Shown here one piece after another: positions 14,476 to 49,401 of a stretch of DNA of 64,000 nucleotides. The stretch's first letter is position 1. Every line of letters starts with the position of its first letter. Origin of the DNA: Bacillota bacterium (GTDB lineage Bacteria; Sysuimicrobiota; Sysuimicrobiia; Sysuimicrobiales; Segetimicrobiaceae); the NCBI GenBank assembly GCA_021324975.1, contig JAJPIA010000101.1, positions 13,924-77,923 on the forward strand, given 5' to 3'. A model generated the notes under the pieces. The model saw only the letters and a list, made by a program, of their open reading frames with translations, had not been told where the DNA came from and did no database searches. The position numbers and the translations under genes were made by a program.

Positions 14476-14697
14476 ATGGGGCGCGCGCGGGGATTCACGC
14501 TCGTCGAGATGATGGTCGTGCTGGCGATCCTGGCGATCGTGGTGGCCGCCGGCTTGTACATCGCCGCGCGCCTGCGGCCCAGCAGGCCCGCGGCCGGGCA
14601 CGCGCTCGCCCGGCCGGGATCGATCGTCCCGCAGCCGACGACCTGGGCCGGCCCCGCCTGTCAGGAAGACGGGCGCCCGGCTGCCGCGATCACCTGA
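14476..14697 (+). CDS. prepilin-type N-terminal cleavage/methylation domain protein (type IV pilin-like)
   Basis: MGRARGFTLVEMMVVLAILAIVVAAGLYIAA is a canonical class-III signal with G/FTLxE and a hydrophobic helix. It overlaps the 3' end of the convergent lyase gene by 37 nt, and its context is odd. Confidence 0.4.
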   Translation: MGRARGFTLVEMMVVLAILAIVVAAGLYIAARLRPSRPAAGHALARPGSIVPQPTTWAGPACQEDGRPAAAIT

Positions 14698-16163
14698 TCG
14701 CACCGGCCCCGCAGCACGGCGCGGCTTGACTCGAGGCGCTCCCGGGCCGCGGCCAGCCACCGCTCCACGCCCGCCAGCCCGGCCGCGGCCGCGTCGAGCT
14801 CCGCGTCGATCGCCGTAGGGCCGGGACCGCCGATGCCCCGTCGCGCCGCCACGAACGCGCGCGCATCGAGAAGCGCCTGCAGCTCCGCGGTCGGGAACGC
14901 GAGCGGCCGTCCGAGCACGGTACCGCTCACATCCCGCATCAACGATTCCGTCCACATGCGCGGATCGGGCACGCGTTGCACCATCGCCGAGACGACGGCA
15001 TGCGCCTGCCGCTGTGATGTCCCGTGCCGGCGCACGATCGCGTCCATGAGCTCCGTCGCGGTCGCACCCGAAGCCACGACGTCGTCCGGCGGCACGCCGG
15101 GACCGATGGCCATCGATCCCAGTGCCAGGCCGAGGAGCTGCGCGGTGTCCGTGGCGTCGTCCAACGTGCGCCAGAGGTCCACCTGCAGCTCGGATGTCGC
15201 GCGGTTGTCGTCCTCGAACGGCGTCGCCGCGACCCCGGCCACCTGTCCGGCGAGCACGCCGGCCGCGCGCGCGGCGCGCGCGCGGAGGTGCTCGACGAAC
15301 ACGAGGTTGCGTTTCTGCGGCATCATGCTGCTCACTTGGACGAACCCGGGATCCAGCGTGACGACCGGCGGCGACCCAGCGGCCCACAGGTCGAGCGTGG
15401 CCAACATGCGACTCGCACCGGCGACGGCCACGCCACACGCGGCGAGCGTCGCGAGCGCGTAGTCGGCCCCGGCGACGGCATCGTACGTGTTCTCGACCAG
15501 CCCGTCGAACCCCATCAGCCGCGCCAGTTCGGTCCGGTCGAGCGGAAACGCGGTGCCGGCCAAGGCGCACGCGCCGAGCGGCGACCGGTTTACCTCTTCG
15601 TACGCGAGCCGGTAGCGGGCGAGGTCGCGGAGCACCGCATCGGCGTAGGCGGCGAGCACGTGGCCGACGGTCGTCGGCTGCGCGGGCCGGCCGTGGGTGC
15701 GCGCCACCACGAGCGTGTCGCGGCCGCCGCGGGCACACGATGCGGTCGCGCGGCCGAGCGCGACCGTAGCACCGACGACCATCAAGAGCCGGGTGCGCAC
15801 GACAACCCGGAAGGCCGCCGCGTCCAGGTCGTTCCGGCTCCGCGCGAGCTGCAGGTTCCCCGCGATGTCGGCACCGAGGCGATCGATCAGCGCGCGCTCG
15901 AGCGCGAAGTACACGTCCTCGACGTCGGGATCGTACTCGAGGGAAGCAGCCGGCACCGCATCCAGCGCATTCAACCCTTCGAGGAGGCGGGCCGCGTGCT
16001 CCGGCGAGAGCACGGCCGCGGAAGCGAGCGTCACCACGTGCGCGCGGCTCGCATCGATCAAGACCGGGTAGAGATCGACCTTCCACGCGTCGAAGATCGG
16101 CTTGAGGACCGTGGCGCGGTAGCGGTCTCTGAGGTCGTGGCGCCCCGCGTGTGCGTCGTCCAC
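14661..16163 (-). CDS. argininosuccinate lyase family protein (class I fumarase/aspartase lyase superfamily)
   Basis: Lyase-1 signature SSMMPQKRN; SRNDLDAAAFR and the N-terminal LYPVLIDASRAHVVTLAS resemble ArgH. The track ORF extends to 16322 through Arg-rich junk; I placed the start at the in-frame GTG at 16163 (VDDAHAG), giving 500 aa. Confidence 0.8.
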   Translation of the reverse strand: MDDAHAGRHDLRDRYRATVLKPIFDAWKVDLYPVLIDASRAHVVTLASAAVLSPEHAARLLEGLNALDAVPAASLEYDPDVEDVYFALERALIDRLGADIAGNLQLARSRNDLDAAAFRVVVRTRLLMVVGATVALGRATASCARGGRDTLVVARTHGRPAQPTTVGHVLAAYADAVLRDLARYRLAYEEVNRSPLGACALAGTAFPLDRTELARLMGFDGLVENTYDAVAGADYALATLAACGVAVAGASRMLATLDLWAAGSPPVVTLDPGFVQVSSMMPQKRNLVFVEHLRARAARAAGVLAGQVAGVAATPFEDDNRATSELQVDLWRTLDDATDTAQLLGLALGSMAIGPGVPPDDVVASGATATELMDAIVRRHGTSQRQAHAVVSAMVQRVPDPRMWTESLMRDVSGTVLGRPLAFPTAELQALLDARAFVAARRGIGGPGPTAIDAELDAAAAGLAGVERWLAAARERLESSRAVLRGRCDQVIAAAGRPSS

Positions 16164-16228
16164 GATGCGGCCTCCGTTTCCGCGCGCAAACGGCACCGGC
16201 TGCGCGGCCGGCGGCGGGCCGGTTGCGC

Positions 16229-17218
16229 CTACGGCAGGCTCTGCAGCACCTGCCAATCCACGTTGCCGCCGCTGAGCACGACGGCGACTCGGGCGTCGGG
16301 CTCGACGGGGAGACGCCCGCACAGGAGGGCGGCCAGCCCCGCGGCGCCGGCCGGTTCGACGACGAGCTTGGCGTACTCCAACACCGCCTTCATCGCCTCG
16401 CGGATCTCCGTGTCGGACACCAGGACGACCTCATCGACGAACCGCCGCACCGCGGCCAACGTCAGCTCCCCGGCCATCGGCGCTGTGAGACCGTCCGCGA
16501 TCGTGTCGATCGAGTGGAGCCGCGTGACGGCGTTGCGCCGGAGCGCGGTCCACAGCGTCGGTGCCCCCTCGGGCTCCACGCCGAACACGCGTGCCCCCGG
16601 CCGACTCGACTTGACGGCCGAGGCCACACCGGAGATCAAGCCCCCGCCGCCGATCGCGACAACGACCACGTCCACGTCCGGGAGATCCTCCACGATCTCG
16701 AGTCCCACCGTGCCCTGGCCGGCGATGATGTGCGGATCGTCGAACGGGTGCACGAGCGTGAGGTTGCGGGCGTCGCGCAGCTGATGCACCCGTTCAAACG
16801 CCTCGTGCATCGTGCCGCCGAGGACGACCTCGGCGCCGTAGGCCCGGCACGCCGCAACCTTGAGCAGGCTGGCGTGCGCCGGCATGACGACCGTCGCATG
16901 CAGCCCCTCCGTCGCCGCGCCGTACGCGAGGGCCTGGGCGTGGTTGCCGGCTGAGATCGTCACGAGGCCGCGGCGTTTGTCCTCGCCGGAGAGATGGCGG
17001 AGCTTGTTGAGCACGCCGCGCGGCTTGAACGATCCCGTCTTCTGAAGATTCTCGGCTTTGAAATAGAGGCGGACTGCCGCCCGTTCGCCCAGGATTCTCG
17101 AGCTCAACAGCGGCGTACGGTGGACGCGTCCCTGGATGACCTCTCGGGCCGCCAGGATGTCGTCCAGGGTGGGAAGTGTCGGGGTCAGCGCTGTTGCGAC
17201 GCCCGAAACGCCGCCCAC
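16229..17218 (-). CDS. threonine/serine dehydratase (PLP-dependent, fold-type II)
   Basis: PLP-lysine motif FKAENLQKTGSFKPRG, with GGGGLISG and the ISAGNHAQALA glycine loop. The track ORF 16229..18079 is a read-through artefact. A GTG at 17218 gives 329 aa and overlaps the upstream M20D gene by 34 nt. Confidence 0.85.
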   Translation of the reverse strand: MGGVSGVATALTPTLPTLDDILAAREVIQGRVHRTPLLSSRILGERAAVRLYFKAENLQKTGSFKPRGVLNKLRHLSGEDKRRGLVTISAGNHAQALAYGAATEGLHATVVMPAHASLLKVAACRAYGAEVVLGGTMHEAFERVHQLRDARNLTLVHPFDDPHIIAGQGTVGLEIVEDLPDVDVVVVAIGGGGLISGVASAVKSSRPGARVFGVEPEGAPTLWTALRRNAVTRLHSIDTIADGLTAPMAGELTLAAVRRFVDEVVLVSDTEIREAMKAVLEYAKLVVEPAGAAGLAALLCGRLPVEPDARVAVVLSGGNVDWQVLQSLP

Positions 17219-20996: not shown

Positions 20997-21200
20997 GCCG
21001 CAGCCGCGCGAACGGCTACTTCGGTCGGGATGTCGATCCGGGGTCCTTCGTGCGACGCGGTTTCCGACCATGCGGAGGCGCGCGAAGCGTGCAGGAGCGG
21101 CCTGCGGCCACCGGGAAAGCGACGAACGCAGGATCCTTCCGACGTCGAAGCAGCCCGGAGCGCAAACGTGACGACCCGCCGCTGTCAACGACACCTGCCG

Positions 21201-21671
21201 ATGTTCAGGGCATCCGCCATGGCGATGGGCGCCGCCATCGCGCTGCTCGTCGCCTCGCCCGCAGGTGCTGCCCCGTCGGGCCCGGCGAAGTGCACACTGA
21301 CGCCGTCCGACGCCGGCGATCCGGCGTACCGGCCAAACGCCCCGGTTCGTTCGTCCGTGGGCACGGGGTTCGTGTTGTCGGGGGTGGTGCGGTCCGGCAT
21401 CGACTGTAAGCCGATCCCCCGCGCGCGCGTCGAACTCTGGCTGCGGGGCCCCGATGGCCAGTACGATGACGCGCATCGGGCGACCGTGATCACGGACGCC
21501 GCCGGCAGATATCGCCTCCAGAGCAATTTCCCCGGAGGCGGCGATTACTTCCAACCGCACATTCACATCCGCGTCGCCGTCTCCGGCTTCCGCCCGCTCG
21601 TGACGGTCTTTCTACCGCACCCCGGCACCCGGGAAGGGACGATGGATCTCGTGCTCGAGCCGGAGATGTAG
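21201..21671 (+). CDS. small secreted intradiol-dioxygenase-like / carboxypeptidase-regulatory-like domain protein
   Basis: Signal peptide MFRASAMAMGAAIALLVASPAGAAP, then GTGFVLSGVVRSGIDCKPIPRARVELWLRGPDGQY...TDAAGRYRLQ. This is the beta-sandwich core seen in intradiol dioxygenase-like proteins, but the product is only about 156 aa. Confidence 0.55.
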   Translation: MFRASAMAMGAAIALLVASPAGAAPSGPAKCTLTPSDAGDPAYRPNAPVRSSVGTGFVLSGVVRSGIDCKPIPRARVELWLRGPDGQYDDAHRATVITDAAGRYRLQSNFPGGGDYFQPHIHIRVAVSGFRPLVTVFLPHPGTREGTMDLVLEPEM

Positions 21672-21824
21672 TGGCGAATCCTTACGACGCCGGCCGGCGC
21701 ACGCGGGCACTACATGTTCAATACAGCAGCGCAGCCGGCAGGGGCGAACTCTACCGGCTGCGCTTATTCGCTTGGTCGCGCGGTTCGTTGCGGATTGTCG
21801 TCAACATCCAGCCGTGCGATCTGC

Positions 21825-22013
21825 TTACTGTCCGCTGCCGTCGCCCTGCGCATTACCCCGGAAATAGTCCGGCGTCGAGCCTGCGCCACCGGCGGTTGCA
21901 CCGATGCTGACGACGCTATTGTCGGCCAACGCCGCGCCGGGCACCAGAGCCACAACCCCCACCAACACTAACCCAGCCAGTGCACCGGCGACGACCTTCC
22001 ACAACCGCTCCAT
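21825..22013 (-). CDS. small secreted/membrane-anchored Gly-rich peptide (62 aa), hypothetical
   Basis: MERLWKVVAGALAGLVLVGVVALVPGAALADNSVVSIGATAGGAGSTPDYFRGNAQGDGSGQ. A strong GGAGGTG RBS lies 7 nt upstream of the ATG at 22013. It is directly downstream of the DCC gene on the same strand. Confidence 0.45.
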   Translation of the reverse strand: MERLWKVVAGALAGLVLVGVVALVPGAALADNSVVSIGATAGGAGSTPDYFRGNAQGDGSGQ

Positions 22014-22236
22014 CGTGATCACCTCCCCTGAATTTTTGGTGCACGTACATCGTACTCGGCCACGGCCACCCCCACCTTGATCCTCGTCACACTCCCGCGT
22101 GATCTTGCTCACACAGATGACCAACGGGCGTCGAACCCGACGCAGGGGATCCTGCGCGGGCTCTTCGTCGCGATATTGTTCGTGACCGTCGCGACCGAGG
22201 ATATGCGCAGACTCGCGCCGCGGCCTGCGGAAGGGA

Positions 22237-22626
22237 TTACGTCAGAAAGCGGTGCTCTAGCTCCGGGGCAGGCACGCGACACGTCGCCGACTTCCCGAAC
22301 CATGCATAGCGATGACGTGCCACCCATCGATATACGGCATCTCGAATAGGCCGCGGAATGATGCGAAGGAACCCAATGAGCCGCCACGGCGGCGGGAGGC
22401 GCGCGCACACCTCAAGGATGGCCGCCGAATCAGTATAGACGCGACGACCCGCGACGACGACAATGCCCGCGAGGACGGGCGCGGGCAGGTGCAACTCCTC
22501 GAGTATCGCGCGCCCCCGCGCAGACTGCTGCGCGCCAAAGACAAACACCCCGAACCGATCGTGATCGATGACGAAGTTCACCCACGCATTGCAGAGGTTG
22601 CACACGCCGTCGAACAACACCACCAT
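22237..22626 (-). CDS. DCC-family thiol-disulfide oxidoreductase (DUF393)
   Basis: MVVLFDGVCNLCNAWVNFVIDHDRFGVFVF...QS..G..IL is the DUF393/DCC1 CxxC N-terminus. The start is ambiguous (ATGs at 22626, 22695 or 22731); I chose 22626, which has a GAGGG RBS. Confidence 0.8.
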   Translation of the reverse strand: MVVLFDGVCNLCNAWVNFVIDHDRFGVFVFGAQQSARGRAILEELHLPAPVLAGIVVVAGRRVYTDSAAILEVCARLPPPWRLIGFLRIIPRPIRDAVYRWVARHRYAWFGKSATCRVPAPELEHRFLT

Positions 22627-22696
22627 CGCACCCTCAGGAGGCGCTTGGATGCGGCCGGCTCGTCCGACCGAGCCCGGCGACTTCGCGTGACTCATG

Positions 22697-23509
22697 TTAA
22701 TGGACAAGCACCCCGCCGAATTTCTGCGCAAAATAATATACCGCTGGATACGTGGCCGTAAACGACCAGAAGAAGATGTTCAGCCCCATGCATAATCCAA
22801 TCGTGAAGTGAAACGCCGCCCCGGCTGCGAAAAACCCCAGCGCGACGCGCGGGTCGATCCAACAGACGACCGGGCCACAGCATTCATAACACAAGACACC
22901 CCAGCAGGCAGCGCGGGCCGCCCAACGGTGCCGCGAGAAAAATCTCGCCAGTGATGGCGCGCCATATGCGTGCGTATTCAAGATGCCGGCGATGGCCTTG
23001 CCGCTGCGCCACACCGGGGAGATCGCCTTCGCGACGCCCGAGGTGAGATAGGCGACGACGAGCTGGCCGGCCACGAACCCGAACACGATCGTCAGCATGC
23101 GGCTGGTCGGGTGCAGATAGTACACGAAGAGAGCGGCCAGCACAAGCAGCATCATCTGATCCGAGCCGTCCGTGCCGTACTGGTTTCGGAACAAGAACAA
23201 CATGTGCACGATCAGCATGATGCCGACAGCCACCACCATCCACGCGGAGGCAAGCCCGGAGAGCACCAGGAGCGCCGCCAACAGTTGCAGGCAGACCAGC
23301 ACAAGGATTCCCGGGCAGGACAGCAACACGTTCAGCAACGCGGCCCCGACGCCGCGTGCCGTCCACCGAGCATTGGTCGAGAGAACGCGCCAATCGTACA
23401 ATCCGGCCGGCGAGAACAAACGGCGGGCCACGAGGGTTTCCGCCGCCTGGATCGCGACGCCGATGGAGATGAGAACCTGCGTGGTGCGGAGCAGCGCCGC
23501 CGAGTCCAT
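22697..23509 (-). CDS. HTTM domain membrane protein (vitamin K-dependent gamma-carboxylase-like)
   Basis: Several TM segments and the conserved HTTM block FRNQYGTDGSDQMMLLVLAALF. ATG at 23509 (MDSAALL...); the track start at 23632 overlaps the upstream gene. Confidence 0.8.
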   Translation of the reverse strand: MDSAALLRTTQVLISIGVAIQAAETLVARRLFSPAGLYDWRVLSTNARWTARGVGAALLNVLLSCPGILVLVCLQLLAALLVLSGLASAWMVVAVGIMLIVHMLFLFRNQYGTDGSDQMMLLVLAALFVYYLHPTSRMLTIVFGFVAGQLVVAYLTSGVAKAISPVWRSGKAIAGILNTHAYGAPSLARFFSRHRWAARAACWGVLCYECCGPVVCWIDPRVALGFFAAGAAFHFTIGLCMGLNIFFWSFTATYPAVYYFAQKFGGVLVH

Positions 23510-23514
23510 TGTGT

Positions 23515-24039
23515 TCAGATGCGGTGGAAGCGGGACAGGAATACTACGTCGCACGCCCGCGCGGACCCGCGTCCGTAGGAACGGGCCACGGCAAACTGCG
23601 TGTACACGGCGGATGACGCATGCGGCTGGCACGTGACGAAATTCAGCAGGGCGAGGAATCCGGTGTCGATCAACATGAAGTCCGGATCCTCACGGTGGTA
23701 CGGAGCGGAGTGCCGTAGCTCGTTGCCGAGATCCGAAAGCCCTTTTTGGAAGCGCTTACGCGGGTTCCACAGCGATCGGAGCGGTCCCGGGTGAAACGGC
23801 ACCTCTCGCCAGCGCATGACGTCTCCACACGCCAGTTTGTCGCGGTACAGAAGATGGGTATCGGTCGTCGCGGGGTTCGGGGCAAAGAACGTCCACGCCG
23901 GTATCATCGCGAAGTCGTCGTACCGCTTGAGAGCCAGGACCCAGCCCTTCAAGCGGAACTGGTAGGCTATCGTTACGAGGAGCCAGACCGCGAACAAAAC
24001 GGCGGCAACTGCTTCGGTCCCGTCCGGGCGACCAAGCAC
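23515..24039 (-). CDS. hypothetical membrane-associated protein, upstream partner of the HTTM/DCC pair
   Basis: 174 aa with an N-terminal TM helix (AVAAVLFAVWLLVTIAYQF), no motif I recognise, and a stop 6 nt before the HTTM start. Codon usage is coherent with its lower-GC neighbours. Confidence 0.5.
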   Translation of the reverse strand: MLGRPDGTEAVAAVLFAVWLLVTIAYQFRLKGWVLALKRYDDFAMIPAWTFFAPNPATTDTHLLYRDKLACGDVMRWREVPFHPGPLRSLWNPRKRFQKGLSDLGNELRHSAPYHREDPDFMLIDTGFLALLNFVTCQPHASSAVYTQFAVARSYGRGSARACDVVFLSRFHRI

Positions 24040-24048
24040 GATCGCCCC

Positions 24049-24468
24049 TCACGACGACTGCGAGACCGAAGCCGCGCGGGCTTCGAGAAGCTCCTGCACC
24101 GACGCGTTCGGGTCAACGGGTTGAGTCCGGGGCCGCAGGCCGCGCTCGCCCGGAGTACAGGCCCGGACTTCGTTTCGACCTTGCGCGTACCGCGCAGCGT
24201 GTGCTTCGGCAATTTTGGCGTGTGCTTCGGCGCGGGCGGCGTGCTCGTGCGCCCGCTGGGCCATTCGTCTCGCTGCCACAGCGAGTTGCCGAGCTTCTTC
24301 GGCTTCTTCGGCCTCTTCGGCTTCCTGGGCGGCCTGACGGCGGTCTTGAGCGAGGACGTCCCCGACGGTCAGATACTCTTTCTCGGGCGGGAGCACCCCG
24401 GCAATGTCTCGCTCGGCGTTGGTCTCTCCCGTTGCACCGGGTGCGTTTGTTCCAGAAGGACTCGCCAT
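24049..24468 (-). CDS. hypothetical coiled-coil / low-complexity protein
   Basis: The ATG at 24468 (MASPSGTNAPG...) gives about 140 aa rich in Ala/Glu/Gln with an (EEA)n repeat. It may be spurious. Confidence 0.3.
   Translation of the reverse strand: MASPSGTNAPGATGETNAERDIAGVLPPEKEYLTVGDVLAQDRRQAAQEAEEAEEAEEARQLAVAARRMAQRAHEHAARAEAHAKIAEAHAARYAQGRNEVRACTPGERGLRPRTQPVDPNASVQELLEARAASVSQSS
24294..24325. repeat. short tandem hexanucleotide repeat (cttcggc-type), encoding EEAEEAEEAEEA on the minus strand
   Basis: Seen directly: cttcttcggcttcttcggcctcttcggcttcc. Confidence 0.6.
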
Positions 24469-24808
24469 GGCCGACCACCCCCAAGATTCTTGGATTCCGC
24501 TTGAACGCGCCGAGTAAGTACAGGGCCAGGAGAGTGCCGGAGGATAGGACGAAGAATCTATGGAATCACTGCGACGCATACGCCGGAATTCCGCGCTATC
24601 TGCGGCCGCAATCACGTAAATTGGGCCGTTAGTTCGACGTGAACATGGAATTCCTTCTGCGCCAACTCTCGACCATTTGCATCCGCTCTCGAGTGAGCGC
24701 GCGCACATTCCGGGCTCACACGTAGGTAACCACACCACTCATCCTCCAGAAATCGGATCAGCCTCATGCTAGGGCGCACGAACGGCTCGCGAACAGGCGC
24801 GTTGGGGG

Positions 24809-27221
24809 GTGAAGAGAATGGCGGCCGCGTGGTCGAGCAAATCCACGACTCCTGCTTGCCTGCAGACCGGTTTCGGCCGTTTCGGTGAAGCCCTTCCGTT
24901 GGACGGCCAGATCAGCTGCGGAGCCACGGCTATCACCATGTCGGTGCTGTGGCTCATCAAGAATCGCTTCACACAGCTTCGACCATCACCCCGGTCGGCC
25001 CACGTAGCCGAGGACCTGGTCCGTGTGTTCGACGGTCTCGCGTATGCGAACGTGGGAGGGCAGATTATCGCCGAAGACTGGTATCGATACGCCGTCGAGA
25101 CGTACCTTGCGTTGAAAGGAATAGGACGAGGCCGATTGGAGATCTGTCGCCGGGTCCCCGCACTCGAGTGGTTCGCGAAGATGAATCAAAATCAGACAGT
25201 CGTCAATTTCGCGGTCGGGTGGTATGGCTCTCCCAAGGATTCGGACACCTTCCAACGCCATGGTCAACACTGGCTCACGCTGCTCGACCAGGATCCCGAT
25301 AGCGGTGTCCTCACGGTCAACAACCCGATGCCGCGGACATTTCCCGGCACGGCCGCCCAAAACCCCCAACACCTCAGAGCGACGCCATTCGAGGGTAGGA
25401 CCAACCCGGCGCTTCCCCGCGAGGACTTCCTTCAAATTGCGACGGTTCGCGCGCACTCGCACGGCCGGCGAGCCGGCATTCTTGAGACGGGGTATGCGTG
25501 GACGATCCACGAGAGCGCGTTACCGTCAGCGGCCGGTTACACTCCTGACGCCTGCGAACTCGAAACGCTGCGCTACATCAACGGCGAGTTCGCCGACTTG
25601 GAGGTGATCGCCCCGCTGGAAGGACGCGGCGGCATCCTCAAATGGGGGCGAGGGAAGCTCATCCTGGCGAATACGAACACGACGACCGGAACCAATGAAA
25701 TTTACGAAGGACCGCTCGTAAGCATACACGCGTCCGAGACGCCCTTCGGCACCGGCACGATCAAGCTGTTCGGCGGCGGAGGCTTGGTGCTCAGCCCCAG
25801 GAACGGAGCCGGGGCGGGCGTGACGTCGCGTGTGGCCGGAGCGCCGCAGGGTGGCGTGGCATTTGGGGGCGGCAACAGCGTAGAGTTCGACCGCAATGGG
25901 CATGCGTCGCTCACGGTCACGTTGGGTGGATGGACGGACGGCAACACGGCGAATCTCACGCGATCGCACAGGGGGACGCTACGCGTCATCCCGGGCTCTG
26001 GGGTAGAGTCGCTTGGTCACGACGAGCGGTTGCTCGTCGCCGGCGAAGGTCGCAATCTGCCGCCCGTCACAAACGGCATGGTGGCGCCGTATGTCGTCGC
26101 GCAGGATCGGGATGGCTCGGGTGCGTTCCTACGCTACACCAAGAGGGATGGGTTCGTCTCTGCGACGATGTCGTCGTCTTCGACGATGCCGATCGACGAC
26201 TCAACCGACGACACCATCTACCATGTAGAAAGCGACCAGACCATCGCCGCCGGCAGAGAAGCGAAGGCGTACGCGATGTGCCTTGATCCTCACCGCGTTG
26301 TCCGTGTGGCGGGCGATGCCGCGCTCCGGATCGGCAACGACAGGCGGTCTCCCGTGGCCGGGGTCATTCTCAACGGCGGGACGATTGCCGGCGGGACCTT
26401 GTCATTTGAGGATCGCGAGGGCCTGATTTATAGCGGTCAGCGTGGTCCGGCCGCTGCGAGGATCACGAGCGACATCTCGGGCTGCCGGGGGATCACGTTC
26501 TTCGGGCCCGGCGAGATCAGGCTGGACGGGGCGAACTGGTATCGCGGCGGCACCGAGATCCATTCAGGCTGGGTCGTCGTGGAGAACACAACCGGCACGG
26601 GGCTGGGGAGTGACGACGTCCTGGTCCGGACCGGCGGAACCCTGGTCATTCACGCCGGGGCCCGTGTCGCGGGCAAGGTGAGCCTTGAACGGGGCTCACA
26701 CCTCATCCTCAAAGGCGGCGCAATCGGGGGGTCTCGACATTAAGTATTCTGGCCACTCGGACAAGGGCGGCATCCTGAAGGGCTTCGGCAATGTTGTCGG
26801 GGCCTCGGAAGTGTCGGGAACGATCCGCGCCGGACGGACGATCGGGACCCTCACGTTCGAAGACCGGGTCTTGTTCGCCACGACCTCATTTTACTGGACA
26901 CTGGTCAGGCTCGACGACGCCGACGCGCACGCGGGTGTGTACTGGAATGCCCTCAGGTTTCGTGGCCCGGCGAAGCTCGGCGCCGAGGGAGACGGCTTTT
27001 TCGTGCTGCTGCATTTTCAGGACGTTCCCGATCCCGACAGCAGCCATCCGTTCTGGCGCCGAGAGCACCGGTGGCTGCTGGCTCAATTCGACGCCAGCCC
27101 GTACGAGTGGTTGGTGAATTCTCCCCGCGGGAATTTCGTGTTCGCGCACGGAACGTTTCGCGTCGAACCTGAGGGTGACCACCGAGCCTATCTCGTGTAC
27201 AAGCCGGCGCCTGCACACTAG
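24809..27221 (+). pseudogene. large protein with N-terminal C39-like papain-fold cysteine-peptidase domain and C-terminal autotransporter-associated beta-strand (PATR-like) repeats; reading frame broken at a G6 tract
   Basis: The N-terminus has QISCGATAITMSVLWL (Cys) and HGQHWLTLLD (His), as in C39-like peptidases. The C-terminal half carries Gly/Thr-rich beta-repeats (GTIKLFGGGGLVL, GGTLSFEDREGLIYSG, TGGTLVIHAGARVAGKVSL). The ORF ends at 26743, but a -1 change in GGGGGG (26726-26731) joins it in-frame to ORF 26685..27221 (...GGAIGG|LDIKYSGHSDKGGILKG...). Confidence 0.6.
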
Positions 27222-29893
27222 AGAGCCCGCACAGCCTGGCCGCCCGACCAGTCGGCCTCGGCGAGCGCGTACCTCACGGCCTGTTCGAGCGTCATCGCGC
27301 GCCCCTCGGCAATCCGTGCGGTCGCCGCGTCATCGCCAAGCGCTGAGCGCAGTCCCCGGAGGACGTCGCCGACGTTCGCGTTGACCCTGCTGACCGGCAG
27401 GCGCAGACCGAACGCCTTGAGTCCCGCCTCCGCGGCGCCGAGAAGGCGCGCGGCACGCTCGGCCTGTCCCCGCGCGGCCTCAAGCAAACCGATATCTTCG
27501 AGGCCGGCAATCATCCCCATCCTGTGTTTGACCTCCCGCCAGATTGCGAGCGCGTCCCTGTGCAGCTGCCAGGCGGTGTCGTAAGCGCCCTCACGAAGGG
27601 CCACCACGCCGAGGTTACCGGTAACGTATCCGACGAGCCATTTGTTGCCGGTTTCGCGGCATAGCATCAGGCTCTCCGTGTAAAATGTGCGCGCCGCGGC
27701 CAGGCGCCCCTCGGCGGCCGCCAGATAACCGAGGCTGTTCAGCACTCGGGCCAGATCGTTCTTATCGTCCGCCGCCGCAAACAGACGCCGCGCCTCATTG
27801 AGGAACGCGGCCGCCCGCCCAAAATCGCGCCGCCAAAATGCCAGTCTGCCAAGCCCGTGCAGGGCGTCGGCCGCACCAAGACCGTCCTCGAGCGATCGGG
27901 CGATGGCCAACGCCTGCTCCAACGCCGCCTGCGCTGCGGCAGCATCCGCGAGGACGGTGGCCGAGTAACCGATGTACCGGAGCGCGCGGGCTTTGAGAAG
28001 CGGTGGCGATTCCCCCGTCCGGAGGGCGATCGCGAGCCGCTCTCGCGCCTCGCGATGATGGCCGCGCACGTACCAGAACCACCACAACGCACAGGCCAGC
28101 CGGAGGCCCGGTTCGGCCTCTGCGGACGCGGCGCACCAGTGCAGCGCGCCCCGAAAGTTATCATGCTCGGCTTCAAGCCGGTCCAACCACGCTACCTGCG
28201 CCGGCCCGCGAATTTCCGGCTCCGCCTGCTCCGCCAGCGCCAAGTACCAGTCTCGGTGGCGTCGCAGAACGTCCACGGCCTCCTGAGACTGCTGCAGCTT
28301 ATCGTGGCCGTATTGGCGTATACTCTCGAGGAGCCGGTACCAGCCGCATCCCTCACGTTCGTCGAACAGCACGAGCGACTTGTCCACGAGGCGCGTCAGC
28401 AGTTCGAGAACGTCGTCTTCTTCCAGACCGCCTCCGCCGCAGATCTGCTCGGTCGCTTCCAGCGTGAAATCTCCGGCGAACACGGAAAGCCGCCGAAACA
28501 GGATGCGCTCACGTTCCGATAAGAGGTCATGGCTCCAATTCAGCATTGCCCGCAGTGTTTGGTGTCGTGGGAGCCCCGTCCGGCTGCTGCTTGTGAGCAG
28601 TCGAAAGCGATCGTCCAACCTCGTCGCGATCGAGTCGACCGACAGGACCTTGACCTGCGCCGCCGCCAGCTCGATCGCGAGAGGAATCCCGTCCAGACGG
28701 CAGGCCACCTGCGCGACCGCGGGCGCACTGCTGCTCGTCAAGCGAAATCCCGGCCGGCTCAGCGCCGCCCGCTCGACGAACAGGCGCACGGCTTCATACC
28801 CCAGCAACTCCTCGACCGGCGGTAGGGCCTGGAGATTGGGAGCCGACAGCGACGGAACACGCCAGACGACCTCGCCCGACACGCCCAACGGTTCGCGGCT
28901 CGTCGCGACAATCCGCAGCCCGGCGCAGGCGCCCAGCAGGACCGCGGCCAGTTGCGCGGCCCCGGCGAGCAGATGCTCGCAATTGTCGAGGATGAGGAGC
29001 AGCGACTTGGGATGCAGCGCGTCAACCAGCGTATCGGTCAACGAGCGGCGCGGTTGCTCGGGTATGCTGAGCGCCGACGCGACCTCCTTCGCGATCAAAT
29101 TTGCGTCCGACAATGCGGCCAGCTCGATCAGCCACGCGCCGTCAGGGTAGCGGCTCACGAGTTCGGAGGCAACTCGGAGTGCGAGTCTCGTCTTGCCGAC
29201 CCCCGCGCTGCCCGTCAACGTGACCATGGCCGTCTCCGATAACGACCGCTTGAGCTCCGCGACCTCCCGCTCACGTCCAATGAAGCTCGTCAGCTGGCGA
29301 GGGAGGTTGTTGAGGAGGGCGTCCAGCGACCGGAGAGGTGGAAACACAGGCATCAAGTCCGAGCCCGTCACCTGAAACAGTCGTTCAGCGCGGGCCAGGT
29401 CTCTGAGCCGGTGAGCGCCGAGGTCGCGCACGCCCAGCCCTCGGGGCAGATCCGTCTCCACGAGCGCGTGAGTCGCCGCCGACAGCAGAATCTGTCCTCC
29501 ATGGGCGGCATCGCAGATCCGGGCAGCCCGGTGCACGTCCATGCCCTCATACCCGGTCTCGGTCATCACGGGCTCTCCCGTGTGCAGCCCCATCCGCACT
29601 CTGACGATCGCCTGCTCCGGCCAGGTATGAGCCGAGAGTGCCCGCTGGGCCGCCACGGCGGCCGCCACCGCGTCGCGCGCGCGTGAGAATGCGACGAAGA
29701 ATGCGTCTCCCTCGGTACTGATCTCACGTCCGTGCCACTCTTTGAACGCGGCCCGCAGCAACCGATGGTGGTCGGTCACGACGCTGACGTAGCGATCGCC
29801 AAGATCCTCGAGTAATCGCGTGGACCCCTCGATGTCGGTGAAGAGAAGGGTAACGGTTCCAGCCGGCACACGAGTCATCGGCGGCCTCCCCAC
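27218..29893 (-). CDS. class III adenylate/guanylate cyclase domain fused to STAND/AAA+ NTPase and TPR repeats
   Basis: N-terminal cyclase homology domain (VTLLFTDIEGSTRL...GDAFFVAFS...RMGLHTGE), a Walker A motif (GSAGVGKTRLAL), and a long C-terminal TPR/helical repeat region; 891 aa. No C-terminal LuxR HTH is detected. Confidence 0.85.
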   Translation of the reverse strand: MGRPPMTRVPAGTVTLLFTDIEGSTRLLEDLGDRYVSVVTDHHRLLRAAFKEWHGREISTEGDAFFVAFSRARDAVAAAVAAQRALSAHTWPEQAIVRVRMGLHTGEPVMTETGYEGMDVHRAARICDAAHGGQILLSAATHALVETDLPRGLGVRDLGAHRLRDLARAERLFQVTGSDLMPVFPPLRSLDALLNNLPRQLTSFIGREREVAELKRSLSETAMVTLTGSAGVGKTRLALRVASELVSRYPDGAWLIELAALSDANLIAKEVASALSIPEQPRRSLTDTLVDALHPKSLLLILDNCEHLLAGAAQLAAVLLGACAGLRIVATSREPLGVSGEVVWRVPSLSAPNLQALPPVEELLGYEAVRLFVERAALSRPGFRLTSSSAPAVAQVACRLDGIPLAIELAAAQVKVLSVDSIATRLDDRFRLLTSSSRTGLPRHQTLRAMLNWSHDLLSERERILFRRLSVFAGDFTLEATEQICGGGGLEEDDVLELLTRLVDKSLVLFDEREGCGWYRLLESIRQYGHDKLQQSQEAVDVLRRHRDWYLALAEQAEPEIRGPAQVAWLDRLEAEHDNFRGALHWCAASAEAEPGLRLACALWWFWYVRGHHREARERLAIALRTGESPPLLKARALRYIGYSATVLADAAAAQAALEQALAIARSLEDGLGAADALHGLGRLAFWRRDFGRAAAFLNEARRLFAAADDKNDLARVLNSLGYLAAAEGRLAAARTFYTESLMLCRETGNKWLVGYVTGNLGVVALREGAYDTAWQLHRDALAIWREVKHRMGMIAGLEDIGLLEAARGQAERAARLLGAAEAGLKAFGLRLPVSRVNANVGDVLRGLRSALGDDAATARIAEGRAMTLEQAVRYALAEADWSGGQAVRAL

Positions 29894-29957
29894 CGCTCAC
29901 GACGCACGGCCGCGCCAATCCAAGACTGTCCCGTCGTGAGTCGATCCTATTGGGTAG

Positions 29958-30653
29958 TCACTCGTTCACCGACCGCGGTAGACGCCGGCGCAATTCGCCC
30001 GGCTTGAGCACGGCCACGACGCCGCGGCGGCATTGCACCAACCCTTCGTCGGCCAGCAGTCGAAGCCACCTGTTGACGCTCTCACGCGTTCCCCCCACCA
30101 CTTCCGCGAGCTCCTCCTGAGTCAGCTGGGGTGGGCCCAAGGTGCCGTCCGGCCCGCGCCGCTCGCCTGCCTCGGCCAGCGTCAGGAGCACCTTGGTCAA
30201 GCGCGTGGGACCGTCCAAGAACACCGCGTCGTGCAGGAGGTCCGTCGTCCGCCGCAGGCGGCGACTCAAGGCAGCGAGGAGGGCCGCGGCGGTATCCGGA
30301 TGGCGCCGTAAAAATGTGAGAAAGTGCTCGCGCTCCAGCGCAAAGAACTTTGATGGCGCCCGTGCGGTCGCCGTGGCCGATCGCTCGCCACCGTCGAGGA
30401 GGGCGAGTTCGCCGAAGAACCCACCCGGGCCGAGTAGTGCCAGGATGATCTCCCGGCCCTCGGGAGACATAATGGTCAGCTTGACTTCGCCGGAGTGAAT
30501 CAAGTACAGAGTTGCTCCGGGGTCTCCTTCCGAGAAGACGACGGCGCCCTTCCGGTAGGTGCGAGGCCGAAACAGCTGGGCGAGGGCGTCGGATTCCGCC
30601 GTCGATAGTCCGGCAAAGAGTGGGGTCTGCGCGAGAATGCGCTCGACGGACAT
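29958..30653 (-). CDS. Crp/Fnr family transcriptional regulator (cNMP-binding + HTH)
   Basis: cNMP-binding beta-barrel motif (GEVKLTIMSPEGREIILALLGPGGFFGELAL) and a C-terminal HTH (TQEELAEVVGGTRESVNRWL). Confidence 0.9.
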   Translation of the reverse strand: MSVERILAQTPLFAGLSTAESDALAQLFRPRTYRKGAVVFSEGDPGATLYLIHSGEVKLTIMSPEGREIILALLGPGGFFGELALLDGGERSATATARAPSKFFALEREHFLTFLRRHPDTAAALLAALSRRLRRTTDLLHDAVFLDGPTRLTKVLLTLAEAGERRGPDGTLGPPQLTQEELAEVVGGTRESVNRWLRLLADEGLVQCRRGVVAVLKPGELRRRLPRSVNE

Positions 30654-30779
30654 ATCCCCCTCTAGCCCGCATGGCTTATCGCCAATTATACACTAGGCCT
30701 GGGAACTAGGCCTGGGACATCGGCGCCGCCGGTCTGTATCGGTATCGCGTCGGGGCCAACATGCGCGGGCCGCGGATGC

Positions 30780-42026: not shown

Positions 42027-42082
42027 GCACCTTCAGGCCGGGGAACGCACGAACCCCTGGCCGCTCGTGCACAGCGTTCAAC

Positions 42083-48107: not shown

Positions 48108-48275
48108 GTCGCAGCGCCGGGGCTCCTCCTCAGATCGACCGGTGCGCATTGTCATCTGCCCCACCCTCCCCGTCGTTCTTCCGCGATCTCGCGACCGCGC
48201 CGGCGCACGCCCGCCCGGCCGGAACTCTCGCCGTTCTCTTCGAATAAAGAGGGGCGATGTCCTCGGAGGTGCCCT

Positions 48276-49397: not shown

Positions 49398-49401
49398 GCC
49401 G

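What the first reader, a model, noticed from the sequence alone, without database searches (positions are those of the whole stretch)
21700..27221. Lower-GC island carrying an HTTM-DCC cassette and a frameshifted C39/beta-repeat giant protein
From about 21.7 to 27.2 kb the composition drops visibly: many A/T-rich stretches in 22.0-22.8 kb and 24.5-24.8 kb against roughly 70% GC elsewhere. Codon usage changes with it. Every gene in the interval is either unrecognisable or belongs to poorly understood families (HTTM, DCC/DUF393, a small Gly-rich secreted peptide, two hypotheticals, a C39-like/PATR-repeat protein). The island sits directly against the cyclase-STAND-TPR gene. It looks like a horizontally acquired accessory block of unknown function, but I see no integrase, transposase, tRNA or flanking direct repeats.
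Basis: partly seen in the sequence, partly recalled or inferred. Interest (0 to 1): 0.75.

Follow-up and report, generated by a model that had tools for sequence, protein, structure and literature searches.

The report
Foreign block with split carboxylase-like enzyme
The low-GC stretch is the core of a roughly 9-kb accessory block of foreign composition whose main cargo is an uncharacterised but widespread three-gene membrane module, related to the linaridin antibiotic enzymes LinL/LinG and to the fold of the human vitamin-K-dependent carboxylase, sitting beside its own regulator and a recently frameshifted surface-protein gene.

Summary
Window 21700-27221 has 63.2% GC against 69.7% elsewhere, the lowest 5.5-kb stretch in the window. 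Its genes have GC3 of 0.66-0.81 against 0.876±0.035.

The boundaries and the reading need correction.
- **Extent:** comparison with related genomes shows the variable block runs from about 21.0/21.7 kb to 30.78 kb. It includes the cyclase-STAND-TPR gene and a Crp-like gene.
- **Age:** the block is absent from two relatives. The closest relative keeps the DCC gene and a 15-codon stump of the membrane gene, so it lost the block by deletion. The block is therefore foreign in composition but not recent.
- **Main cargo:** an operon X-Y-H-DCC. H (270 aa) fails Pfam HTTM, but its model matches only human GGCX and it keeps the counterparts of GGCX K218, W223, H287 and F299. Y (174 aa) is a distant DUF5819 relative. 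Y sits directly upstream of H in 50 of 54 loci. Both match linaridin LinL/LinG, but there is no LinE.
- **Frameshifted gene:** it is real, an extra G in a G6 run, but encodes about 800 aa, not a giant protein. C39 membership is unsupported.

Most likely function: a two-subunit, GGCX-like membrane enzyme that modifies a linked protein. The chemistry is not established.

The parts
21825..22013 (-). pep62: 62-aa ORF with a signal-peptide-like N-terminus and a Gly-rich ~33-aa C-terminal part. It is a possible secreted peptide and is specific to this lineage.
   Evidence: GGAGG Shine-Dalgarno sequence 7 nt upstream of the ATG. GC-rich hairpin downstream at about 21720-21760. Absent from L010, where 72 bp replace window 21678-22233. 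Not found in any other cassette locus. No Pfam hit.
22237..22695 (-). DCC1-like thiol-disulfide oxidoreductase, 152 aa, with a CNLC motif. It is the last gene of the X-Y-H-DCC operon.
   Evidence: Pfam PF04134, E=2e-30. The ATG at 22695 lies 1 nt after the H stop codon, and both the ATG and the reading frame are conserved in L010. Mismatches against L010 by codon position are 21/14/49, which indicates purifying selection. A DCC gene follows H in only 3 of 56 loci.
22697..23509 (-). H: 270-aa polytopic membrane protein with an HTTM/GGCX-like fold, homologous to LinG. Presumed catalytic subunit.
   Evidence: AF2 model with pLDDT 93.9. The top 11 Foldseek PDB hits are all human GGCX (TMq 0.47-0.62, probability 1.0) and everything below them is noise. 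Invariant K161, W167, H234 and F246 align with GGCX K218, W223, H287 and F299. Pfam scan of family members: LMF1 in 6 of 32, HTTM in 2 of 32. The H-HMM scores S. atratus LinG at 4e-65.
23515..24039 (-). Y: 174-aa protein with an N-terminal TM helix, the invariant motif IPxWxFFAPNP...D...R, and an alpha/beta domain. It is DUF5819-like and LinL-like. Presumed partner subunit of H.
24049..24468 (-). X: short-form (~139 aa) member of the variable gene that precedes Y. It carries an 'ERDIAGVLPPE' motif, an Ala/Glu/Gln-rich low-complexity stretch and the conserved C-terminal helix 'QELLEAR'. Candidate substrate or partner.
   Evidence: Weak similarity to L170_X145 (E=3e-4) and to L174. The motif is shared with the long-form X350. 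The C-terminal motif is present in 35 of 55 genes upstream of Y, against 1.1% of control ORFs. The longer 229-aa ORF (to 24738) has no coding signal in its first 90 codons, and the short-form homologues begin about 17 aa before the motif.
24469..24817 (.). AT-richer divergent intergenic region between X and B. Presumed promoter region.
   Evidence: GC 0.57-0.61. No consensus sigma-70 match was found here. Inference only.
24818..27221 (+). B: ~800-aa protein gene broken by a +1 frameshift. It has an N-terminal domain with an invariant Cys, a PATR/autotransporter-type beta-helix repeat region and a conserved C-terminal domain.
   Evidence: Homologues P0066-P0070 are single ORFs of 735-856 aa that cover both window ORFs. 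Profile against PDB finds only autotransporter beta-helices: 8e7f_A at 4.7e-5 and fusolisin at 1.5e-4. The N- and C-terminal domains have no Pfam match. An intact orthologue lies in the same position, between X and the cyclase gene, in L173.
26726..26731 (+). Frameshift site: a run of six G, where five would keep the frame.
   Evidence: The same sequence occurs in the independently assembled JGI contig, which differs by 1 mismatch in 20.8 kb.
27218..29878 (-). Adenylate/guanylate-cyclase - STAND NTPase - TPR protein (886 aa). It is part of the conserved block and is the presumed sensor/regulator.
   Evidence: Pfam Guanylate_cyc, AAA_22, NB-ARC and TPR_12. A 57% identical, full-length orthologue lies directly upstream of X-Y-H on the same strand in L170. 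A 63.5% identical C-terminus flanks B in L173. Deleted together with the cassette in L010. GC3 0.79.
29958..30653 (-). Crp-like regulator (cNMP-binding domain plus HTH). It lies inside the indel, next to the cyclase gene.
   Evidence: Pfam families on the JGI gene call. Absent from L010, L012 and L013. GC3 0.78. Not present next to the cyclase gene in L170.
21219..21671 (+). sec150: small secreted protein of normal composition, at the left edge. It is part of the deeper indel only.
   Evidence: Present in L010 (94% aa identity) and absent from L012 and L013. GC3 0.84. Weak Dioxygenase_C and CarboxypepD_reg hits.

Best explanation
**What the dip is.** The GC dip is the AT-richer core of a 9.1-9.8 kb accessory block, window about 21.0/21.7 to 30.78 kb. 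The block sits between a FabH-like gene and a CoA-transferase gene in an uncultured high-GC Bacillota-like genome. It came from a lineage of about 61-67% GC, before the split from the closest sequenced relative. That relative later deleted most of it.

**What the block carries.**
- A cyclase-STAND-TPR sensor/regulator, plus a Crp-like protein.
- A surface-type beta-helix protein gene (B) with a putative Cys-His N-terminal domain. It is now broken by one extra G in a G6 run.
- The operon X-Y-H-DCC.
- A small secreted-peptide ORF (pep62).

**How the core is proposed to work.**
- H is an HTTM-fold membrane protein that keeps the counterparts of the GGCX active-site Lys, Trp, His and Phe.
- Y is a single-pass, DUF5819/LinL-like protein. 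By analogy it supplies the extra TM helix and the 'clamp' domain, so that Y plus H together rebuild a GGCX-like enzyme.
- This membrane complex probably uses a quinone cofactor to modify a genetically linked protein or peptide. X is the most likely target, and its conserved C-terminal helix would be the docking element.
- The CxxC protein DCC would serve as an optional redox partner.

**Shown:** the composition, the indel structure, the conserved gene order, the fold of H, residue conservation, family relationships, and the frameshift.

**Inferred:** formation of a Y-H complex, catalysis and cofactor use, X as substrate, the role of DCC, and regulation by the cyclase-STAND protein.
For: **Composition and indel**
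- Composition figures.
- L012 and L013 have the FabH-like and CoA-transferase genes abutting.
- L010 retains DCC plus the stump 'AAVYYFAERLGGLPLR*' of H.
- Donor-like GC of L170, L171, L090, L173 and L174 is 0.61-0.67.

**Block conservation**
- L170 has cyclase(57% id)-X-Y-H on one strand.
- L173 has X | intact B | cyclase, in the window's arrangement.

**Module**
- Y is directly upstream of H in 50 of 54 loci, and elsewhere in the locus in the other four.
- The gaps between X, Y, H and DCC are 9, 5 and 1 nt.
- The X C-terminal motif occurs in 35 of 55 upstream genes against 1.1% of controls.

**Fold and residues of H**
- The H model (pLDDT 93.9) matches only GGCX in the PDB.
- hhalign places invariant K161, W167, H234 and F246 on GGCX K218, W223, H287 and F299. 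The GGCX numbering was verified against the PDB sequence.
- W223A and F299A impair GGCX (PMC12647623).

**Family relationships**
- Y relates to DUF5819: 34 of 58 members hit it.
- A 2026 preprint predicts that DUF5819 plus an HTTM-DCC fusion forms a GGCX-like complex, with Lys189, Trp195 and Phe273 at the menaquinone site. The Lys-to-Trp spacing is +6, as here (10.64898/2026.08.19.745780).
- H and Y match documented LinG and LinL at 4e-65 and 2e-27.
- Deletion of cypH, cypL, legG or legE abolishes linaridin production (10.1101/2020.07.09.196543).
Against: - H itself has no Pfam or NCBIfam hit, and the profile search against PDB sequences finds nothing.
- The hhalign match to GGCX is statistically weak (E=0.058), so the residue mapping rests on a low-scoring alignment plus the fold match.
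- The Y model is only moderately confident (pLDDT 78; residues 40-56, which include the conserved motif, are below 55). It has no fold relative in the PDB, GGCX included.
- No model of the Y-H complex could be made.
- DCC accompanies H in only 3 of 56 loci, and it survived deletion of H in L010. It is therefore not an obligate partner.
- The window's X is a deviant short form that the X-HMM does not detect.
- The C-terminal motif of X was defined after looking at the data.
- The tails of X carry no conserved modifiable residue.
- The GGCX residues that bind the glutamate substrate (N159, H160, Y395) could not be mapped.
- B is frameshifted and a sister lineage has deleted the block, so the block may be dispensable or decaying.
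Confidence: 0.55

Rival explanations
1. The cassette is a cryptic linaridin-type (or SdpAB-type) RiPP/toxin cluster. In this reading Y and H (LinL/LinG-like) dehydrate or otherwise mature a small ribosomal peptide, either pep62 or the tail of X, into a secreted antimicrobial.
For: - H and Y match LinG and LinL of the S. atratus cluster at 4e-65 and 2e-27.
- A related H::alpha/beta-hydrolase fusion plus Y on an S. flavofungini plasmid sits beside three small ORFs (two with PxxxTP), a methyltransferase and ABC transporters.
- X occupies the position that a precursor gene normally holds, immediately upstream of the enzyme genes.
- pep62 is a small ORF with a signal-like N-terminus, just downstream of the operon.
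- From my own knowledge, not tested here: B. subtilis SdpB is an HTTM protein needed to mature the SDP toxin.
Against: - There is no LinE/alpha-beta hydrolase homologue anywhere in the 64-kb window.
- There is no LinM, LinD or ABC exporter in the block.
- pep62 has two Thr and no PxxxTP motif. It is absent from every other cassette locus.
- X is 130-420 aa and not Thr/Ser-rich.
- NCBIfam SdpA and SdpB models do not hit Y or H.
- The X-Y-H triad occurs without any RiPP-type neighbours in the loci examined.
Confidence: 0.2
2. The block is a decaying remnant of an old insertion with no current function. The dip would simply mark non-ameliorated, partly pseudogenised DNA.
For: - B carries a frameshift, seen in two assemblies.
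- The window's X lacks the TM or 'TGxYGLC' segment of its relatives, and the first 90 codons of its long ORF look non-coding.
- The closest relative has deleted 8 kb of the block without replacing it.
Against: - H and Y retain every invariant residue of their families.
- DCC shows a third-position-biased substitution pattern against L010.
- Gene spacing of 1-9 nt and the start sites are intact.
- The part of B downstream of the frameshift still keeps all invariant family residues, so the frameshift is recent.
- The cyclase ORF is intact.
Confidence: 0.15
3. The composition drop is intrinsic to the encoded proteins (membrane and repeat proteins with unusual amino-acid content) and is not a sign of foreign origin.
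For: - H has low GC1 (0.59), typical of hydrophobic proteins.
- The strong AT skew at 22-24 kb follows gene orientation.
Against: - GC3, which is largely independent of amino-acid content, also falls by about 2-6 sd in every gene of the block, including the soluble cyclase and Crp proteins.
- The block boundaries coincide with indel boundaries in three relatives.
- L010's retained DCC segment is also low in GC (0.642 in a 0.713 genome).
Confidence: 0.05

Closest known systems
Linaridin (RiPP) core proteins LinG (or the N-terminal half of LinH/CypH) and LinL (CypL)
   Same: - Clear sequence homology. The H-HMM scores S. atratus LinG at 4e-65, with 30.5% identity over 259 aligned residues. The Y-HMM scores LinL at 2e-27.
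- Shared motifs: GxDGSDQ, QxxLSYxxxGxxKxxxxxWRSG and FH...MGLxxFxWxF in H, and IPxWxFFAPxP in Y.
- The two genes are adjacent in one operon, and a further gene sits directly upstream, in the position of a precursor gene.
   Different: - No LinE alpha/beta hydrolase, LinM, LinD or LinT.
- The gene order is Y-H rather than H/G-(E)-L.
- The upstream gene is a 130-420 aa protein (X) with a conserved C-terminal helix, not a Thr-rich LinA peptide with a PxxxTP motif.
- The module is found well outside Actinobacteria, for example in planctomycete-like and Bacillota-like contigs.
- The biochemical role of LinG/LinL is itself unconfirmed.
DUF5819 + HTTM(-DCC1) pair (Melghirimyces thermohalophilus), predicted split homologue of the vitamin-K-dependent carboxylase (bioRxiv 10.64898/2026.08.19.745780)
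   Same: - A single-pass TM protein is adjacent to an HTTM-fold membrane protein and a DCC1-like CxxC module.
- The conserved Lys...Trp spacing is +6, with a downstream Phe.
- Y family members hit DUF5819 below threshold, in the same register.
   Different: - Here DCC is a separate gene and is usually absent from the family (3 of 56 loci).
- Y and H fall below the Pfam thresholds.
- There is an extra conserved gene, X.
- The complex is not modelled here, and the published complex is itself only a prediction.
[quoted passage not shown]
   Same: - The fold of the transmembrane catalytic domain is shared: the top 11 PDB hits, with TMq up to 0.62.
- The counterparts of K218, W223, H287 and F299 are invariant in the H family.
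   Different: - Sequence identity is 12-16%.
- There is no lumenal/clamp domain in the same chain.
- The glutamate-binding residues N159, H160 and Y395 could not be mapped.
- There is no evidence for carboxylation or for vitamin K use.
Autotransporter-type PATR beta-helix surface proteins / PEP-CTERM proteins (for gene B)
   Same: - Weak PATR and autotransporter-repeat hits, and PDB profile hits to autotransporter passenger helices.
- One homologue ends in a PEP-CTERM motif, and two homologues have signal peptides.
   Different: - No beta-barrel translocator domain.
- The window's copy has no signal peptide.
- The N-terminal (invariant Cys37) and C-terminal domains match no known family.
Class III adenylate cyclase-STAND(NB-ARC)-TPR regulators such as M. 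tuberculosis Rv0386 (comparison from my own knowledge)
   Same: The domain order is cyclase, then P-loop STAND NTPase, then TPR. The JGI annotation also lists an HTH_77 domain.
   Different: No experimental link to the cassette exists. The association rests on synteny in three lineages.

Membership tests
Pfam HTTM (PF05090) / GGCX superfamily | Significant match to the HTTM profile | tested here: not met
   No hit for the window protein, even at E<=10. Only 2 of 32 family members hit HTTM (best 8.8e-7), and 6 of 32 hit the related LMF1 family.
Pfam HTTM (PF05090) / GGCX superfamily | GGCX-like transmembrane fold | tested here: met
   The AF2 model (pLDDT 93.9) finds human GGCX as its top 11 PDB hits, with probability 1.0 and TMq 0.47-0.62. 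The remaining hits are noise.
Pfam HTTM (PF05090) / GGCX superfamily | Catalytic Lys (GGCX K218) and pocket residues W223 and F299 conserved | tested here: inconclusive
   Invariant K161, W167 and F246 align to them, but the hhalign score is weak (E=0.058). The spacing agrees with the preprint's K189/W195/F273. No structural superposition was available.
Vitamin-K-dependent carboxylase (functional class) | Quinone-dependent carboxylation of a substrate residue | not testable with these tools
   This needs biochemistry. The glutamate-binding residues N159, H160 and Y395 were not mapped.
DUF5819 (PF19136) | Match above the Pfam gathering score (27.1 bits) | tested here: not met
   Y174 itself has no hit. 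34 of 58 family representatives give sub-threshold hits (12-18 bits in the ten shown; best E 2.2e-6), all starting at profile position 22-23. This indicates remote homology, not membership.
DUF5819 (PF19136) | N-terminal TM helix plus ~150-aa domain, encoded next to an HTTM protein | tested here: met
   The model shows helix 7-28 followed by a mixed alpha/beta domain. Y is adjacent to H in 50 of 54 loci.
Linaridin biosynthetic gene cluster | LinG/LinH and LinL homologues present | tested here: met
   The H-HMM scores S. atratus LinG at 4e-65, and the Y-HMM scores LinL at 2e-27.
Linaridin biosynthetic gene cluster | LinE alpha/beta hydrolase (separate or fused) | tested here: not met
   tblastn of LinE against the whole window finds nothing. 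There is no hydrolase domain in the block.
Linaridin biosynthetic gene cluster | Short Thr-rich precursor with PxxxTP; LinM and LinT | tested here: not met
   pep62 and X lack PxxxTP and are not Thr-rich. There is no methyltransferase or ABC transporter in 21-31 kb.
DCC1-like thiol-disulfide oxidoreductase (PF04134) | Profile match above threshold and the N-terminal CxxC motif | tested here: met
   106.6 bits against a cutoff of 27.8, covering the full-length profile. The motif 'DGVCNLCN' is present.
Peptidase C39 / C39-like | Match to a C39-family profile | tested here: not met
   No Pfam hit for the N-terminal domain of the window protein or of four homologues at E<=1, and no PDB sequence hit. 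Only an invariant Cys37 and a mostly conserved GxH...NNP pattern are seen.
PATR / autotransporter beta-helix repeat | Repeat profile above threshold | tested here: inconclusive
   PATR scores 22.9 bits against a cutoff of 27. TIGR02601 scores 16.3 against 19.85. Four of five homologues carry precomputed PATR hits. Profile hits to autotransporter passenger domains in the PDB are at 4.7e-5 and 1.5e-4.
Mobile genomic island | Integrase/transposase, tRNA target, flanking direct repeats | tested here: not met
   No tRNA in 64 kb. Only short imperfect repeats are found. No recombinase among the called genes.
Mobile genomic island | Atypical composition and presence/absence polymorphism among relatives | tested here: met
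SdpA/SdpB antimicrobial-peptide maturation system | Match to the NCBIfam SdpA and SdpB models | tested here: not met
   There are no NCBIfam hits for H or Y at E<=1, nor for 58 Y relatives.
Known anti-phage defence systems (PADLOC) | Match of block proteins to defence-system models | tested here: not met
   Only generic TPR, P-loop and cNMP-binding domain hits were found.

The most novel reading that the evidence does not exclude
X-Y-H is a widespread, unrecognised bacterial post-translational modification system. In this reading a split, GGCX-like, quinone-dependent membrane enzyme (Y+H, the LinE-less sister of the linaridin LinL/LinG pair) recognises dedicated protein substrates (X) through their conserved C-terminal helix. 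It would carboxylate, dehydrate or otherwise modify them at the membrane. In this lineage it would be under the control of a cAMP-producing STAND sensor and would use a DCC thiol oxidoreductase to recycle the cofactor.
Probability: 0.25. Interest if true: 0.8.

Novelty: new variant of a known kind. Interest (0 to 1): 0.5.

Why it matters
**As a horizontal-transfer island this is ordinary.** It is a variable, compositionally foreign block with no mobility genes.

**The cargo is what makes it worth a look.**
- H and Y belong to families that fall below the Pfam and NCBIfam thresholds and are annotated 'hypothetical' in RefSeq, yet they are large. The Y family has 1666 representatives of 50%-identity clusters.
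- They link three lines of work that have been treated separately: the still-unassigned linaridin core proteins LinG/LinL, the DUF5819-HTTM-DCC pairs recently predicted to be split vitamin-K-dependent carboxylases, and human GGCX.
- A LinE-less triad with a protein-sized partner bearing a conserved C-terminal helix offers a simpler system for finding out what LinG/LinL-type enzymes actually do.
- The synteny with a cyclase-STAND regulator suggests how the system is switched on.

**The locus also shows a clear evolutionary sequence.** The block is absent from L012 and L013, complete in the window, and reduced in L010 to DCC plus a stump of H. This ordering shows that an 'island' absent from the nearest relative can reflect loss in that relative rather than gain.

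Tried and rejected
- **Pfam and NCBIfam on all island proteins.** Only DCC and the cyclase domains were significant. There were no HTTM, C39, SdpA or SdpB hits.
- **Profile of the H family against PDB sequences.** Nothing was found; only fold search found GGCX.
- **Are the 178-aa and 847-aa genes next to DCC in L005 homologues of the window's C178 and B644?** No similarity was found, so the equal length is a coincidence.
- **Is B linked to the cassette in more distant homologues (L008, L009)?** It is not. The link holds only in the closest one, L173.
- **Y-H fusion protein P0107 (441 aa).** The extension looks like out-of-frame read-through, so it was rejected as Rosetta-stone evidence.
- **Long-form X N-terminal domain in the window.** tblastn found it absent, and the X-HMM does not hit the window.
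- **Other conserved neighbours of H.** Clustering of ORFs in 84 loci gave only H, Y/X and antisense shadow ORFs.
- **Mobility and regulatory signatures.** No tRNA, convincing repeat, Rfam family, PADLOC match or viral contig was found.
- **Promoter and terminator scan.** No more hits than in shuffled sequence.
- **Programmed frameshift in B.** A +1 shift would be required, and a G6 run followed by T is not a known +1 site. An intact orthologue has a continuous frame. The break is therefore treated as a mutation.

Full report
**1. The observation**

A 1-kb sliding profile shows GC of 0.60-0.645 from 21.5 to 27.0 kb. Upstream (1-21 kb) it is about 0.70-0.74, and at 27-33 kb it is 0.66-0.69. Window 21700-27221 has GC 0.632 against 0.697 for everything outside 21678-30779. 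It is the minimum of all 5.5-kb windows, which average 0.690 with sd 0.021.

Third-position GC of the genes in the interval is 0.66-0.81. Thirty-seven background genes give 0.876±0.035, with a minimum of 0.794. The dip and the codon shift are therefore real. The cyclase-STAND (GC3 0.79) and Crp-like (0.78) genes to the right are also atypical, though less so.

**2. Gene content**

Frame-specific GC, start-site inspection and the JGI gene calls on the same sequence were combined. L001 equals window 12697-33509 reversed, with 1 mismatch in 20,813 bases. They give:

| Gene | Coordinates | Strand | Size |
|---|---|---|---|
| pep62 | 21825-22013 | - | 62 aa |
| DCC | 22237-22695 | - | 152 aa |
| H | 22697-23509 | - | 270 aa |
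| Y | 23515-24039 | - | 174 aa |
| X | 24049-24468 | - | ~139 aa |
| B, two ORFs | 24818-26743 and 26685-27221 | + | ~800 aa repaired |
| cyclase-STAND-TPR | 27218-29878 | - | 886 aa |
| Crp-like | 29958-30653 | - | 231 aa |

X, Y, H and DCC are separated by 9, 5 and 1 nt, which indicates one operon.

Pfam confirms only DCC1-like (E=2e-30) and the cyclase, NTPase and TPR domains. The supposed HTTM protein, both hypotheticals and the peptide have no Pfam or NCBIfam match. PATR is below threshold.

**3. Is it an indel, and when did it arise?**

A scan of species-representative genomes with the flanking FabH-like protein found close relatives:
- L010, 'Bacillota bacterium Centralia_MAG_47', about 90% nucleotide identity.
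- L012, about 82%.
- L013, 'uncultured Firmicutes', 74-80% nucleotide identity across the aligned blocks.

In L012 and L013 the FabH-like and CoA-transferase genes abut. Window 21002-30779 has no counterpart there.

L010 is collinear up to window 21677 and again from 30780. It has sec150 and a DCC gene. It lacks window 21678-22233 (pep62) and 22745-30779 (H, Y, X, B, cyclase and Crp).

Directly upstream of L010's DCC gene, abutting the CoA-transferase stop codon, the DNA still reads 'AAVYYFAERLGGLPLR*'. That is the C-terminus of H, which in the window reads 'PAVYYFAQKFGGVLVH*'. L010 therefore lost about 8 kb by deletion, and the block predates the split of the two genomes.

The retained DCC segment is unusually diverged: 75.7% identity against 87-90% in the flanks. 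It is also low in GC in L010 (0.642 in a 0.713 locus), with substitutions concentrated at third positions, 21/14/49 by codon position.

There is no tRNA, integrase or meaningful flanking repeat.

**4. The block is a conserved unit**

- The closest H homologues are 64-70% identical and lie on metagenome contigs of 61-67% GC.
- In L170 an 875-aa cyclase-STAND-TPR protein, 57% identical over its full length to the window's, sits directly upstream of X(145 aa)-Y-H on the same strand.
- In L173 an intact 806-aa orthologue of B (56% identical) lies between an X gene and the C-terminus of a cyclase-STAND gene (63.5% identical). The orientations match the window exactly.
- More distant B homologues are not next to Y or H.

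The cyclase gene is therefore part of the block, not a neighbour of it.

**5. The frameshifted gene**

All five homologues are single ORFs of 735-856 aa covering both window ORFs. The frames switch at ATC GGG GGG TCT (26726-26731). With five G the sequence would read IGGLDIKYSGH, against IGGIAVKYRGH in P0066.

The same G6 run is in the JGI assembly. The downstream part still holds every invariant residue of the family, so the lesion is recent.

The protein is about 800 aa, not giant. Its middle matches autotransporter-type beta-helices weakly. One homologue ends in PEP-CTERM, and two have signal peptides.

The N-terminal domain has an invariant Cys37 and a mostly conserved GxH...NNP pattern, but it has no C39 or any other profile match. 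The JGI start codon at 24938 would remove this conserved N-terminus. ATG 24818 fits the homologues better.

**6. The core module**

*H.* The word-index homologue search returned 41 proteins, nearly all without Pfam domains. An alignment of 32 members has 20 invariant positions.

The AF2 model is confident (pLDDT 93.9). Its top 11 PDB matches are all human GGCX, with probability 1.0 and TMq 0.47-0.62. Everything below them is noise.

hhalign against human GGCX is weak (E=0.058). It places invariant K161, W167, H234 and F246 on K218, W223, H287 and F299. W223A and F299A impair GGCX activity (PMC12647623).

*Y.* Y is immediately upstream of H in 50 of 54 loci that have enough upstream DNA, and elsewhere in the locus in the other four. 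A profile search of 1.84 billion cluster representatives finds 1666 Y relatives at E<=1e-3, of which 350 are at E<=1e-30.

None reaches a Pfam threshold in the sample shown. However, 34 of 58 give weak DUF5819 hits in one register (best 2.2e-6), and no other family recurs. The Y model is moderate (pLDDT 78) and has no PDB fold relative.

*X.* The gene upstream of Y is variable, from 70 to 420 aa, and some forms have an N-terminal domain and a TM helix. In 35 of 55 loci it ends with a motif of the type [EQTDKRA][LMI][LIVM]x[LIVMAY]R, 4-20 residues from the C-terminus. Only 1.1% of control ORFs carry it. I defined this motif after seeing the data. The window's X has 'QELLEAR' and resembles the short forms of L170, L173 and L174.

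*DCC.* A DCC gene follows H in only 3 of 56 loci.

**7. Relation to what is known**

A 2026 preprint (10.64898/2026.08.19.745780) predicts that a DUF5819 protein and the adjacent HTTM-DCC1 fusion of Melghirimyces form a complex resembling whole GGCX. In that model the DUF5819 TM helix and domain take the places of a GGCX helix and clamp. Lys189, Trp195 and Phe273 sit at the menaquinol site. The Lys-to-Trp spacing is +6, as in H. The fused bacterial carboxylase MloH is cited as precedent.

Independently, tblastn of H against plasmids hit Streptomyces clusters. The S. atratus hit is the LinG gene of the LanB/LanC-LinG/LinE/LinL hybrid cluster described by Georgiou et al. (10.1101/2020.07.09.196543). 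My H and Y HMMs score its LinG and LinL at 4e-65 and 2e-27.

An S. flavofungini plasmid carries an H::alpha/beta-hydrolase fusion (LinH type), a Y-like gene, three small ORFs (two with PxxxTP), a methyltransferase and ABC transporters. The Rhodococcus sp. DMU1 mobilizable megaplasmid carries a plain X-Y-H triad, all annotated 'hypothetical'.

The window has no LinE homologue, and the block has no LinM or LinT and no PxxxTP precursor. It is therefore not a linaridin cluster. It is a LinE-less relative of the linaridin core pair. According to that paper, deletions of cypH, cypL, legG or legE abolish linaridin production, but the enzymes' roles remain unconfirmed.

**8. Most likely mechanism**

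Y and H together form a GGCX-like membrane enzyme. H supplies the quinone and active-site pocket, and Y supplies an extra TM helix and a substrate-side domain. The enzyme acts on a linked protein, most plausibly X docked through its C-terminal helix.

DCC, a CxxC protein, would be an optional redox partner. This is suggested by its fusion to HTTM in other bacteria, but it is dispensable in most loci. The cyclase-STAND-TPR and Crp pair is a plausible cAMP-based switch.

All of these steps are inferences. The fold of H, residue conservation, gene adjacency and homology are shown.

Rival readings are:
- a cryptic linaridin- or Sdp-like peptide system using pep62;
- a decaying remnant with no current function;
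- composition that is intrinsic to the proteins rather than foreign.

**9. Verdict**

- The GC and codon observation is confirmed.
- The gene labels are partly right: DCC yes, HTTM at fold level only, C39 unsupported, 'giant' wrong, frameshift yes.
- The horizontal-origin idea is supported, but with wrong boundaries and wrong timing.
- The cargo is a new, LinE-less and protein-associated variant of the LinL/LinG, DUF5819/HTTM kind.
- No defence-system, RNA-family or viral association was found.

Noticed in passing
L176 (NZ_CP128847.1, Streptomyces flavofungini plasmid, record 123394-128592): This looks like an unannotated linaridin-type cluster. It has three small ORFs of 63, 63 and 70 aa (two with PxxxTP, two sharing a leader), a 605-aa LinH-type fusion annotated only as 'alpha/beta fold hydrolase', a LinL-like 195-aa 'hypothetical', an NTF2 protein, a methyltransferase and ABC transporters.
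   Followed up: partly
L175 (NZ_CP050953.1, Rhodococcus sp. DMU1 716-kb linear mobilizable plasmid, record 585581-587748): A complete X-Y-H triad of 258, 181 and 266 aa, all annotated 'hypothetical protein'. It shows that the module travels on a mobilizable plasmid.
   Followed up: partly
window 24809-24938: The public (JGI) gene call for B starts at ATG 24938 (601 aa). That start cuts off the N-terminal ~40 residues conserved in all homologues, including the invariant Cys37. ATG 24818 or GTG 24809 fits better.
   Followed up: yes
window 27218-27221: The cyclase-STAND gene (-) and the 3' part of B (+) converge, and their ends overlap by 4 nt.
   Followed up: no
L010 11711-12236 against window 22234-22744: The retained DCC segment is much more diverged (75.7% nucleotide identity, no gaps) than the flanks (87-90%). 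The cause could be fast evolution of non-ameliorated DNA or allele exchange by recombination. This is unresolved.
   Followed up: partly
window 24293-24328: A short 9-nt tandem (GCTTCTTCG, three copies) on the + strand encodes the (AEE)n stretch of X on the - strand. The low-complexity Ala/Glu/Gln region is a general feature of X proteins; L002, L007 and L171 have long (Q/A/D)-rich runs.
   Followed up: partly
window 39500-42500 and 46500-47500: There are two further, milder GC dips: 0.65-0.66 at 39.5-42.5 kb, and 0.645 at 46.5-47.5 kb inside a 990-aa ORF at 46482-49451(-).
   Followed up: no
L005/L006 9390-15086 (- strand): Convergent with the Y-H-DCC genes of this distant locus is a run of five unannotated genes. 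It includes an 847-aa protein, a 498-aa protein and a Cys-rich 142-aa secreted protein. No similarity to the window's B/C genes was found.
   Followed up: partly
L171 1937-4051: Directly downstream of H in this contig lies a DnaB-type replicative helicase gene that appears to carry an intein-like insertion. This points to a chromosomal context.
   Followed up: no
window 14661-16784: Two very long overlapping antisense ORFs: 590 codons on the - strand and 589 on the + strand, both stop to stop. The - strand one corresponds to the called Lyase_1 gene, so the + strand one is probably a high-GC shadow ORF.
   Followed up: partly
P0107 (441 aa): A Y-family protein with a 270-aa C-terminal extension of junk-like sequence. 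It is probably a read-through of a frameshifted Y-H junction rather than a true fusion.
   Followed up: partly
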